From assembly GCF_009914755.1 (NCBI RefSeq), contig NC_060929.1: a stretch of 64,000 nt of DNA. The stretch is one strand, 5' to 3'. The stretch comes from the human T2T-CHM13v2.0 reference genome, Homo sapiens. The number at the start of each line of letters is the position of its first letter. The stretch's first letter is position 1. Below, piece after piece: positions 22,324 to 25,300 of the stretch. The translations under genes were made by a program, and so were the position numbers. The notes below the pieces were generated by a model. That model made no database searches and was not told the DNA's origin. It saw only the letters and a program-made list of their open reading frames with translations.

Positions 22324-25300
22324 AAAAAAGAAAACAAAACTTTAAGTTCTAGGGTACATGTGCACAACGTGCAGGCTTATTACATAGGTATACATGTGCC
22401 ATGGTGGTTTGCTGCACCCATCAACTCATCATTTACATTAGGTATTTCTCCTAAGGCTATCCCTCCCCCAGTCCCCCACCCCACAACAGGCCAGGTGTGT
22501 GATGTTCCCCTCCCTGTGTCCATGAATTCTCATTGTTCAAGTCCCACTTATGAGTGAGAACATGCAGTGTTTGGTTTTTTGTCCTTGTGATATTTTGCTG
22601 AGAATGATGGTCTCCAGCTTCATCCATGTCCCTGCAAAGGACATGAACTCATCCTTTTTTATAGCTGCATAGTATTCCATGGTGTATATGTGTCACATTT
22701 TCTTAATCCAGTCTATCATTGTTGGACATTTGGGTTGGTTCCAAGTCTTTGCTATTGTGAATAGTGCCGCAATAAACATACGTGTGCATGTGTCTTTATA
22801 GCAGCATGATTTATAATCCTTTGGGTATATACCCAGTAATGGGATTGCTGGGTCAAATGGGATTTCTAGTTCTAGATCCTTGAGGGATCACCACACTGTC
22901 TTCCACAATGGTTGAACTAGTTAACAGTCCCACCAACAGTGGAAAAGCATTCCTATTTCTCCACATCCTCTCCAGCATCTCTTGTTTCCTAACTTTTTAA
23001 TAATTTCCATTCTAACTGGCATGAGATGGTATCTCATTGTGGTTTGGAATTGCATTGCTCTGATGAGCAGTAATGATGAGCATTTTTTCATGTGTCTGTT
23101 GGCTGCATAGATGTCTTTTTTTGAAAAGTGTCTGTTCATATCCTTTGCCCACTTTTTGATGGGCTTGTTTGTTTTTTTCTTGTAAATTTGTTTGAGTTCT
23201 TTGTAGAATCTGGATATTAGCCCTTTGTCAGATGGGTACGTTGCAAAATTTTTCTCCCATTCTGTAGGTTGCCTCTTCACTCTGATGGTAGTTTCTTTTG
23301 CTGTGCAGAAGCTCTTTAGTTTAATTAGATCCCATTTGTCAATTTTGGCTTTTGTTGCCATTACTTTTGGTGTTTTAGTCATGAAGCCCTTGCCCATGCC
23401 TATGTCCTGAATGATATTGCCTAGGTTTTATTCTAGGGTTTTTATGGTTTTAGGTCTAACATGTGAGTCTTTAATCCATTTTGAATTAATTTTTGCGTAA
23501 GATGTAAGGAAGGGATCCAGTTTCAGCTTTCTACATATGGATAGCCAATTTTCCCAGCACCATTTATTAAATAGGGAATCCTTTCCCCATTGCTTGTTTT
23601 TCTCAGGTTTGTCAAAGATCAGATAGTTGTAGATATGCAGCGTTATTTCTGAGGGCTCTGTTCTGTTCAATTGATCTATATCTCTGTTTTGGTACCAGTA
23701 CCATGCTGTTTTGGTTACTGTAGACTTGTAGTATAATTTGAAGTCAGGTAGCGTGATGCCTCCAGCTTTGTTCTTTTGGCTAAGGATTGACTTGGCGATG
23801 TGGGCTCTTTTTTGGTTCCATATAAACTTTAAAGTAGTTTTTTCCAATTCTGTGAAGAAAGTCATTGGTAGCTTGATGGGGATGGCATTGAATCTATAAA
23901 TTACCTTGGGCAGTATGGCCATTCTCACGATATTGATTCTTTCTCCCCATGAGCGTGGAATGTTCTTCCATTTGTTTGTGTTCCTCTTTTATTTTGTTGA
24001 GCAGTGGTTTGTAGTTCTCCTTGAAGAGGTCCTTCACATCCCTTGTAAGTTGGATTCCTAGGTATTTTATTATCTTTGTAGCAATTGTGAATGGGAATTA
24101 ACTCATGATTTGGCTCTCTGTTTGTCTGTTATTGGTGTATAGGAATGCTTGTGATTTTTGCACATCGATTTTGTATGCTGAGACTCTGCTGAAATTGTTA
24201 ATTAGGTTAAGGAGATTTGGGGCTGAGACAATGGGATTTTCTAAATATACACTCATATCATCTACAAACAGGGACAATTTGACTTCCACTTTTCCTAAGT
24301 GAATAACCTTTATTTTTTTCTCTTGCCTGATTGCCCTGGCCAGAACTTCCAACACTATGTTGAATAGGCGTGGTGAGAGAGGGCATCCTTGTCTTGTGCC
24401 AGTTTTCAAAGGGAATGCTTCCAGTTTTTGCCCATTCAGTATGATATTGGCTATGGGTTTGTCATAAATAGTTCTTATTATTTTGAGATACATTCCATCA
24501 ATACCTAGTTTATTGAGAGTTTTTAGCATGAAGGGCTGTTGAATTTTGTCAAACGCCTTATCTGCATCTATTGAGATAATCATGTGTTTTTTGTCATTGG
24601 TTCTGTTTATGTGATAGATTACGTTTATTGATTTGCATATGTTGAACCAGCCTTGCATCCCAGGGAAGAAGCTGACCTGATCGTGATGGATAAGCTTTTT
24701 TATGTGGTGCTGGATTTGGTTTGCCAATATTTTATTCAGAATTTTTGCATCGATGTTCATCAGGGATATTCATCTAAAATTCTCACTTTTTTGTTGTGTC
24801 TCTACCAGGCTTTGGTATCAGGACGATGCTGGCCTCATAAAATGAGTCAGGGAGGATTCCCTCTTTTTCTATTGATTGGAATAGTTTCAGAAGGAATGGT
24901 ACCAGCTTCTCTTTGTACCTCTAGTAGAATTCAGCTGTGAATCCATCTGGTCCTGGACTTTTTTTGGTTGGTAGGCTATTAATTATTGCCTCAATTTCAG
25001 AGCCTGTTATTGGTCTATTCTGAGATTCAACTTCTTCCTGGTTTAGACTTGGGAGGGTGTATGTGTCCAGGAATTTATCCATTTCTTCTAGATTATCTAG
25101 TTTATTTGCATAGAGGTGTTTATAATATTCTCTGATGGTAGTTTGTATTTCTGTGGGATCAGTGGTAATATTCTCTTTATCATTTTTTATTTCATCTATT
25201 TGATTCTTCTCTCCTTTCTTCTTTATCAGTCTTCCTAGCAGATAAATTTTGTTGATCTTTTCAAAAAACCAGCTCTTGGATTCATTGATTTTTTCAAGGG

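What the first reader, a model, noticed from the sequence alone, without database searches (positions are those of the whole stretch)
23548..24219. Gene-conversion-like tract: old antisense L1 carries a copy of a younger L1 located 28 kb away in inverted orientation
Seen: element A (L1PA6/7-like, minus) switches here to PA2/3-type residues ([23 protein letters not shown], versus [18 protein letters not shown] in element B). It shares five non-CpG variants with element C: 23548/51745 (aaaaTtggc), 23736/51557 (caaaTtatac), 23782/51511 (cctTagcc), a 1-bp frameshifting insertion at 23981-2/51311-2 (gaggAacac), and 24219/51074 (SAPNLL for SAQNLL). All pairs sum to 75293, so the two are colinear. 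The copies at 2.3 kb, 42 kb and 57 kb show the ordinary states where they overlap. By eye there are about 6 mismatches over the core ~370 bp. Outside the tract A reverts to older states (~23420, ~24248). Both elements keep their TSDs and C has no reciprocal old patch. Inference: non-reciprocal ectopic conversion C to A, via fold-back pairing of inverted repeats.
Basis: partly seen in the sequence, partly recalled or inferred. Interest (0 to 1): 0.85.

Follow-up and report, generated by a model that had tools for sequence, protein, structure and literature searches.

The report
Old L1 patched from neighbouring L1
About 530 bases inside an old, dead L1 retrotransposon on human chromosome 5 were overwritten with sequence copied from a younger L1 lying 28 kb away in the opposite orientation, a clear but ordinary example of gene conversion between dispersed repeats.

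Summary
The tract is shorter than stated, and most of the "shared variants" are not private to A and C.

Over 23542-24071 (530 bp), the old minus-strand L1 (A) differs from the younger plus-strand L1 (C, 51222-51751) at 11 sites (2.1%). In the rest of the gapless alignment the figure is 127 of 1508 (8.4%). None of 20000 permutations gave a 530-bp window as low. The other five L1 pairs in the window show no rise there.

A carries the old state at 13/13 and 5/6 diagnostic sites in its flanks, and the young state at 9/9 in the core. C is young throughout the core. In trees, A is sister to C in the core (support 0.967) and groups with old copies in the flanks. A and C are reciprocal best genome-wide hits over the core.

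A 21-mer holding the shared 1-bp insertion occurs exactly twice in the 3.1-Gb genome, in A and in C. The other shared variants are rare or common L1 states. The stretch 24072-24219 is not converted. Both elements keep their target-site duplications.

Best reading: non-crossover ectopic gene conversion from C to A, at roughly 0.3-0.5 of C's age. This kind of event is known, so interest is modest.

The parts
22341..27523 (-). Element A: old 5'-truncated L1, the acceptor. It sits inside an older + strand L1M.
   Evidence: Self-comparison of the window. The ends were read. Its flanks reach only 93-94% identity to their best genome-wide hits. Its terminal branch is 0.055 in the flank tree.
22307..22323 (.). 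Target-site duplication of A, left copy. The right copy is at 27524-27540; 14 of 17 bases match.
   Evidence: Read by eye. Both copies lie in the interrupted L1M.
23542..24071 (-). Converted tract in A, best estimate 530 bp. The minimum set by informative markers is 23548-23982. The maximum set by firm old-state markers is 23418-24141.
   Evidence: 11 A-C differences in 530 bp against 127 in 1508 outside; 0 of 20000 permutations as low. 9/9 diagnostic sites are young. A-private density is 1.3% against 3.1-4.0% in the flanks. A and C are sisters at 0.967 support. C is the best genome-wide hit at 907 bits, next 876.
23982..23982 (-). 1-bp insertion (frameshifting for ORF2) shared with C at 51311. 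This is the only variant private to the pair.
   Evidence: Absent from 28/28 young and 29/29 old panel copies and from B and D. The 21-mer holding it occurs exactly twice in the genome, in A and C.
24072..24229 (-). It includes a cluster of 8 A-only changes in 41 bp (24166-24206) and the isolated shared C at 24219.
   Evidence: 14 A-only differences in the 148 bp of 24072-24219. A is old at 24142 and 24161 where C is young. The C at 24219 is a common L1 state. The cluster is shown.
50114..52987 (+). Element C: younger 5'-truncated L1 with an A-rich tail, the donor.
   Evidence: It is 94.9-95.5% (median) identical to the young panel in the flanks and 97.5% in the tract. Its terminal branch is 0.031 in the flank tree.
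50103..50113 (.). Target-site duplication of C (AAAGAAATAGT). The second copy is at 52988-52998; 11 of 11 bases match.
   Evidence: Read by eye.
51222..51751 (+). Donor segment in C, colinear with the tract (A position + C position = 75293).
   Evidence: Its best genome-wide hit apart from itself is A, at 907 bits against 899 for the next. It is young at 9/9 core diagnostic sites, so it carries no reciprocal old patch.

Best explanation
A DNA break or gap inside the old L1 (A) was repaired by homologous recombination. The template was the younger L1 (C), 28 kb away on the same chromosome in inverted orientation. About 530 bp of C (51222-51751) was copied over A (23542-24071). No crossover occurred and C was left unchanged, so this is non-allelic (ectopic) gene conversion. 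The copying carried four of C's own rare variants into A, including a 1-bp insertion. Afterwards the two copies drifted apart by about 2%. The event happened at roughly 0.3-0.5 of C's residence time. That is of the order of 5-10 million years ago, if a rate of about 0.1-0.17% per million years (recalled, not tested here) applies.

Shown: the tract, the direction, the donor, the non-reciprocity and the absence of crossover.
Inferred: that a break in A started it, that repair ran through a synthesis-dependent strand-annealing type route, and the absolute date.
For: 1. A-C identity is 97-98% in windows across about 23500-24150 and 86-95.5% elsewhere. That is 11/530 differences against 127/1508, binomial p = 6e-10, with 0 of 20000 permutations as low.
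2. The rise is specific to this pair. A-B, A-D, C-B, C-D and B-D stay at 80.9-95% through the tract.
3. Diagnostic sites separating a panel of A's own subfamily (29 loci) from a young panel (28 loci): A is old at 13/13 in the 5' flank, young at 9/9 in the core and old at 5/6 in the 3' flank. C is young at 26/28. Fisher p = 1.4e-6. A test using only B and D as the old reference gives A young at 11/12 core sites.
4. The best genome-wide hits of A's flanks are 93-94% identical and C is not among the 40 scored. The core reaches 98% to C and 97% to the next best.
5. A is C's best hit over the core.
6. A-private changes fall to 7 in 530 bp (1.3%) against 61 in 1743 bp in the flanks; Poisson p = 0.002.
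7. Of C's rare states, 4 of 6 in the core are shared with A, against 1 of 38 outside; Fisher p = 5e-4.
8. The 21-mer with the shared insertion occurs exactly twice in 3.1 Gb.
9. Trees: A+C are sisters (0.967) within a 26-tip clade that has no old-panel member in the core. A groups with old-panel copies in the flanks. The A-C distance is 0.025 against 0.134.
10. Both target-site duplications are intact and A is old on both sides of the tract, so there was no crossover or inversion breakpoint.
11. C is one of only three other L1 copies covering this segment in the 64-kb window, out of at least 5377 first-look candidates genome-wide. Proximity therefore supports a direct DNA-level exchange.
Against: - The margins over other young L1s are small: 907 against 876 bits from A's side and 907 against 899 from C's side.
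- Only 40 of 3949-6897 candidates were scored in each search, so a closer copy could in principle have been missed.
- Only one shared variant is truly private. T at 23782 occurs in 10 other copies, T at 23736 in at least 4, and T at 23548 in at least 39.
- The panels were chosen by similarity to parts of A. That makes the counts for the 5' flank and the core partly circular. The 3' flank counts, the B/D-based test, the genome-wide identity levels and C's own states do not share this problem.
- Changes since the event are uneven: 7 in A against 2-4 in C. Four of A's seven lie within 32 bp (23924-23955), so part of the core may be a mosaic.
- No orthologue from another primate and no read data could be examined. 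The pre-conversion state of A is inferred, not observed.
Confidence: 0.88

Rival explanations
1. The patch came from C through an RNA or cDNA intermediate. A break in A would have been bridged or repaired using a reverse transcript of C, either as cDNA-mediated conversion or as endonuclease-independent L1 insertion into an existing L1.
For: L1 sequence is known to patch breaks without target-site duplications. Three of 21 such events fell in existing L1s (PMC1920257, passages read). The patch here has no duplications or tail of its own.
Against: - The replacement is exactly colinear, with no extra or lost bases across 2038 nt. In PMC1920257, 18 of 21 such insertions came with deletions and 15 of 21 with extra DNA.
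- C is 5'-truncated and has no promoter of its own, so a transcript would need read-through.
- An RNA route gives no reason for the donor to be the neighbour 28 kb away, out of thousands of copies.
Confidence: 0.05
2. The donor was a different young L1, not C. It could be a sibling from the same source element or a copy since lost. The variants shared with C would then be lineage variants.
For: Many young L1s are 96-97% identical to the tract. Only 40 candidates per search were scored.
Against: - The 21-mer with the insertion is found only in A and C in the whole genome.
- No other scored copy has both T at 23736 and T at 23782.
- All 38 other hits in each span 527-529 bases rather than 530, which fits their lacking the insertion.
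- A and C are sisters with 0.967 support.
Confidence: 0.04
3. A is a mosaic made before or during its own insertion, by template switching between L1 RNAs or descent from a recombinant source element. The likeness to C would be coincidence.
For: The tract is in register and in the correct orientation, as a recombinant transcript would give.
Against: - All parts of one insertion should be equally decayed. A's branch is 0.055 in the flanks and 0.016 in the core, and A-private density is 3.1-4.0% against 1.3%.
- By branch length the young states belong to a lineage later than A.
- This rival does not explain the insertion shared only with the neighbour.
Confidence: 0.01
4. The patch is an assembly or polishing artefact, with reads from C mis-assigned to A.
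For: A and C are 91% identical repeats 28 kb apart, the kind of place where mis-polishing can occur. No reads could be examined.
Against: - The tract differs from C at 11 of 530 sites, 7 of them changes found only in A. A copied-over consensus would be identical to C.
- The tract edges coincide with a change in diagnostic states and private-mutation density rather than with read-length-sized blocks.
Confidence: 0.02

Closest known systems
Non-allelic gene conversion between Alu elements in primates (Kass et al. 1995; Roy et al. 2000; Aleshin and Zhi 2010, all as cited in PMC6598467 and PMC8230782, passages read)
   Same: An old dispersed repeat is partly overwritten by a younger copy. The exchange is non-reciprocal. 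It is detected by a switch of diagnostic positions and shared non-diagnostic variants. Young-to-old is the commoner direction: 40 AluS-to-AluY loci against 12 in the reverse direction in PMC8230782. Proximity matters.
   Different: Here the repeats are L1s and the tract is about 530 bp, longer than a whole Alu. The partners are 28 kb apart, beyond the roughly 10-kb range those passages give for Alu conversion. The donor copy itself can be named from a private insertion.
Gene conversion involving L1 elements: human Ta L1s (Myers et al. 2002, known to me only as cited in PMC554112); repair of a break in a mouse LINE by conversion from endogenous LINEs (Tremblay et al. 2000, only as cited in PMC1920257); locus NCLI34 of PMC1920257
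   Same: L1 copies act as templates for repair of other L1 copies. For NCLI34 the authors inferred an intrachromosomal conversion that placed a 377-bp segment, 98% identical to a copy downstream on the same chromosome, inside an L1. That is nearly the same size and layout as here.
   Different: This case involves two old fixed copies of different subfamilies in inverted orientation. It is not a recent L1Hs or Ta insertion, and it has since diverged by about 2%. I could not read the Myers or Tremblay papers, so details of their tracts are not compared.
Interlocus gene conversion between segmental duplications and duplicated genes (reviewed in PMC3924818; search listing only)
   Same: Copy-and-paste of a short stretch between paralogous sequences on one chromosome, seen as a patch of high identity and conflicting trees.
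   Different: Those paralogues are usually more than 95% identical over many kb. A and C were only about 91-93% identical when the event occurred. That figure is inferred from the present flank identity.

Membership tests
Non-allelic (ectopic, interlocus) gene conversion | A bounded stretch where two paralogues are much more alike than in their flanks, beyond chance and not due to general conservation | tested here: met
   11/530 differences against 127/1508; 0 of 20000 permutations as low. The other five L1 pairs show no rise.
Non-allelic (ectopic, interlocus) gene conversion | Conflicting trees: the acceptor groups with the donor inside the tract and with its own lineage outside | tested here: met
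   In the core, A+C are sisters at 0.967 support within a clade that has no old-panel member. In the flanks, A groups with old-panel copies L044 and L063.
Non-allelic (ectopic, interlocus) gene conversion | Non-reciprocal: the donor keeps its own sequence | tested here: met
   C is young at 9/9 core diagnostic sites, and 97.2% (median) identical to the young panel in the core.
Non-allelic (ectopic, interlocus) gene conversion | No exchange of flanking sequence (non-crossover) | tested here: met
   A is old on both sides of the tract (13/13 and 5/6). Each element has matching target-site duplications at its two ends.
Non-allelic (ectopic, interlocus) gene conversion | Donor-specific variants transferred to the acceptor | tested here: met
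   The 1-bp insertion is found only in A and C genome-wide. 4 of 6 C-rare states in the core are shared, against 1 of 38 outside.
Non-allelic (ectopic, interlocus) gene conversion | The orthologous locus in an outgroup species shows the unconverted state | not testable with these tools
   No primate genomes other than the window's own assembly are held.
Endonuclease-independent L1 insertion at a break (NCLI, PMC1920257) | L1 sequence inserted without target-site duplications, usually with loss of target DNA and/or extra non-L1 bases at the junctions | tested here: not met
   The patch replaces the homologous stretch base for base. The A-C alignment is gapless over 2038 nt spanning both junctions.
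Recombinant (mosaic) L1 formed before insertion | All segments of the element show the same amount of decay since insertion | tested here: not met
   A's terminal branch is 0.055 in the flanks against 0.016 in the core. A-private density is 3.1-4.0% against 1.3%.

The most novel reading that the evidence does not exclude
The two tight clusters of A-only changes are scars of error-prone repair synthesis from the same event. One has 8 changes in 41 bp at 24166-24206, about 100 bp outside the tract. The other has 4 A-only changes, plus 1 in C, in 32 bp at 23924-23955, inside it. The conversion may also be specific to the human or African-ape lineage, or even polymorphic. If so, this locus would be a natural, datable case of mutagenic conversion between inverted L1s that were only about 92% identical and 28 kb apart. 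It could be used to ask how far and how faithfully dispersed repeats template repair in the germline.
Probability: 0.1. Interest if true: 0.5.

Novelty: new member of a known kind. Interest (0 to 1): 0.3.

Why it matters
Gene conversion between dispersed repeats blurs subfamily assignment and divergence-based dating of transposable elements. By divergence from a consensus, A would look younger in this stretch than it is. Such conversion can also move variants between loci.

This locus is a clean worked example. Acceptor, donor, direction, tract limits and relative date can all be read from one assembly. The donor is fixed by an insertion found in only two places in the genome.

The case also shows conversion between copies about 8-9% diverged in their flanks, 28 kb apart and in inverted orientation. 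That is further apart than the roughly 10-kb range quoted for Alu (PMC6598467 and PMC8230782, passages).

It does not change what is known about the mechanism. Neither copy has a function that the event would alter: both are truncated, and the transferred insertion breaks the frame.

Tried and rejected
- **Adjacent L1M as source of the cluster.** I tested whether the A-only cluster at 24166-24206, or the C at 24219, was copied from the inverted L1M at 27527-28360. Only 2 of the 8 cluster states match it (counted by eye), so no.
- **Longest identical run.** The longest perfectly identical A-C run (116 bp, 23956-24071) is not significant on its own; the permutation 99.9th percentile is 158. I did not use it.
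- **'CA' at 23995-23996.** I first counted this as shared-rare. It is an older-subfamily or CpG-decay state: C in 12/29 and A in 6/29 of the old panel, and also present in B and in L033-L036. I dropped it.
- **Shared-rare sites outside the core.** 24906, 24807 and 22846 are states also carried by B, so they are old states that C retains, not signs of exchange.
- **Second tract at 22650-22950.** A-C identity rises to 94.5-95.5% there, but A-B rises equally to 93-94%. This is local conservation, not a second tract.
- **Papers.** Myers 2002 and Tremblay 2000 are not held. Searches did not surface L1-specific work. Searches did.
- **More loci.** The old panel therefore comes from the 5'-flank search only.
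- **Subfamily names.** With no repeat library I could not assign RepeatMasker-style subfamily names.
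Full report
**What is there**

The window is human chr5 (T2T-CHM13). Element A is an old, 5'-truncated L1 on the minus strand (22341-27523). 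It is nested in a still older plus-strand L1M. Element C is a younger, 5'-truncated L1 on the plus strand (50114-52987). The two align in inverted orientation without a single gap over 2038 nt, with A position + C position = 75293.

**Is the patch real?**

In 200-column windows, A-C identity is 97-98% across about 23500-24150 and 86-95.5% elsewhere. Within the gapless stretch there are 11 differences in 23542-24071 (530 bp) and 127 in the other 1508 bp. The binomial p is 6e-10, and none of 20000 permutations gave a 530-bp window with so few differences.

The rise is not general conservation of this part of ORF2. The pairs A-B, A-D, C-B, C-D and B-D stay at 80.9-95% through the tract. B is the L1 at about 40-43.7 kb and D the one at 56.8-58.8 kb.

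**Which copy changed?**

I searched the window's own genome.
- A's flanks (24230-24900 and 22870-23540) find nothing better than 93-94% identity. C is not among the 40 scored hits of either search.
- The core finds C at 98% (907 bits), then many young L1s at 96-97% (876 bits and below).
- Searched from C's side, A is the best hit (907 bits, next 899).

I took 28 loci from the tract search as a 'young' panel and 29 loci from the 5'-flank search as a panel of A's own subfamily. These two panels differ consistently at 28 sites. A is old at 13/13 sites in the 5' flank, young at 9/9 in the core and old at 5/6 in the 3' flank. C is young at 26/28, including all nine in the core. Fisher's exact test gives p = 1.4e-6.

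Because the panels were picked by likeness to parts of A, the counts for the 5' flank and the core are partly circular. Several lines do not share this weakness: the 3'-flank counts, C's own states, the genome-wide identity levels, and a separate test using only B and D as the old reference. In that test A is young at 11/12 core sites, and at the twelfth both A and C are old.

At the protein level, the tract's residues match solved L1HS ORF2p chains.

**Age break**

Changes found only in A (rare in both panels) run at 3.1% and 4.0% in the flanks and 1.3% in the core. That is 7 observed where 18.5 were expected, Poisson p = 0.002.

In maximum-likelihood trees, A and C are sisters in the core (support 0.967), inside a 26-tip clade with no old-panel member. 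In the flanks, A groups with old-panel copies. The A-C distance is 0.025 in the core and 0.134 in the flanks. A's terminal branch is 0.016 against 0.055, and C's is 0.0087 against 0.031.

So the core of A has been evolving on its own for much less time than the rest of A. This excludes a mosaic formed at or before A's insertion.

**Is C itself the donor?**

- The 86-mer around 23548/51745 and the 76-mer around 24219/51074 each have at least 39 other exact copies in the genome. All 40 scored hits were 100% identical.
- C at 24219 is also in 3 of 29 copies of A's own subfamily panel.
- T at 23736 occurs singly in four other loci.
- The 21-mer with T at 23782 occurs 12 times: in A, in C and in 10 other places.
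- The 21-mer holding the 1-bp insertion occurs exactly twice in 3.1 Gb, in A and in C.

No other scored copy combines T at 23736 with T at 23782. All 38 other hits in each span 527-529 bases rather than 530.

Of C's rare states, 4 of 6 in the core are shared with A, against 1 of 38 outside. That one (22846) is an old state also found in B and D. Fisher p = 5e-4.

C is one of only three other L1 copies covering this segment in the 64-kb window, out of thousands genome-wide. Together these results make C, or its allele at the time, the donor.

**Limits of the tract**

- **Low-coordinate side:** the last shared marker is 23548, and A-only changes begin at 23541.
- **High-coordinate side:** the last firm markers are the insertion (23982) and the diagnostic site 23946. 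A-only changes begin at 24072, and A is old at 24142 and 24161 where C is young.
- **Estimates:** best estimate 23542-24071 (530 bp), minimum 23548-23982, maximum 23418-24141.
24219 lies beyond 148 bp that hold 14 A-only differences. The shared C there is best read as a common state that A had anyway.

**Non-reciprocal and non-crossover**

C has no old patch in the core. A is old on both sides of the tract. Each element keeps matching target-site duplications: C at 11/11 bases and A at 14/17 (read by eye). A double crossover or an inversion breakpoint is therefore excluded.

**Timing**

Since the event the copies have diverged at 11 of 530 sites. About three of these (23753, 23801, 23955) lie in CpG contexts (context read by eye). 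By branch lengths, the event lies at about 0.3-0.4 of C's age and about 0.3 of A's. By strict private counts it lies at about 0.4-0.5 of C's age.

With a rate of 0.1-0.17% per million years, which I recall from the L1 dating literature and did not test, this gives roughly 5-10 million years. That is close enough to the African-ape splits for orthologues to date it directly.

**Mechanism**

The most likely route is a break in A that was repaired by homologous recombination with C as template and resolved without crossover. The sequence shows the outcome, not the route.

A cDNA-mediated route is not excluded, but it is disfavoured for three reasons. The replacement is exact and gapless. C lacks a promoter. 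Such a route would not explain why the neighbour was used.

An assembly artefact is unlikely, because the patch differs from C at 11 sites, 7 of them private to A.

**What is known**

Non-allelic conversion between transposable elements is well described for Alu. Known features include a preference for young copies converting old ones and a dependence on distance (PMC6598467 and PMC8230782; passages read).

For L1, PMC1920257 (passages read) infers an intrachromosomal conversion that placed a 377-bp segment, 98% identical to a copy downstream on the same chromosome, inside an L1. The same paper cites Tremblay et al. 2000 for repair of a LINE break by conversion from endogenous LINEs. PMC554112 cites Myers et al. 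2002 for conversion among Ta L1s. I could not read those two primary papers.

This locus is therefore a new, well-resolved member of a known kind. My literature searches were not aimed at this particular locus, so I make no claim that it is undescribed.

**Verdict**

Novelty is low and interest is modest.

Noticed in passing
window 24166-24206: There are 8 changes found only in A within 41 bp, about 100 bp outside the converted tract. A's private rate elsewhere in the flanks is 3-4%. Only 2 of the 8 match the adjacent L1M, so they were not copied from it. This may be chance, a complex mutation, or a scar of repair.
   Followed up: partly
window 23924-23955 (C: 51338-51369): Five of the 11 A-C differences in the core lie within 32 bp: 4 are A-only and 1 is C-only, and three of them fall within 6 bp. 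A is still young at the diagnostic site 23946 inside this stretch. It therefore looks like a later complex change rather than an unconverted island, though a mosaic tract is not excluded.
   Followed up: partly
window 19578-22280 and 27527-29479: An older plus-strand L1M-like element, 72-76% identical to A, is split by A's insertion. Its two halves resume at the point where A's target-site duplication lies.
   Followed up: partly
window 22324-22340: Between A's left target-site duplication and the end of its 3' UTR, the plus strand reads A-rich (AAAAAAGAAAACAAAAC). A minus-strand L1 should show a T-rich stretch there, the complement of its poly-A tail. I have no explanation.
   Followed up: no
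window 45810-46083 and 47981-48257: Two L1 3'-end fragments lie in inverted orientation about 2 kb apart. They are 90-96% complementary over about 274 nt, more alike than either is to A (84-86%). The likeness seems to run past the L1 part. This could be an inverted duplication or another local exchange.
   Followed up: no
window 23995-23996 / 51297-51298; also 24906, 23461, 22846: C carries the older-subfamily state at a few isolated sites where the young panel differs. C therefore seems to belong to a lineage somewhat older than, or intermediate to, the young panel. Subfamily names were not testable here.
   Followed up: partly
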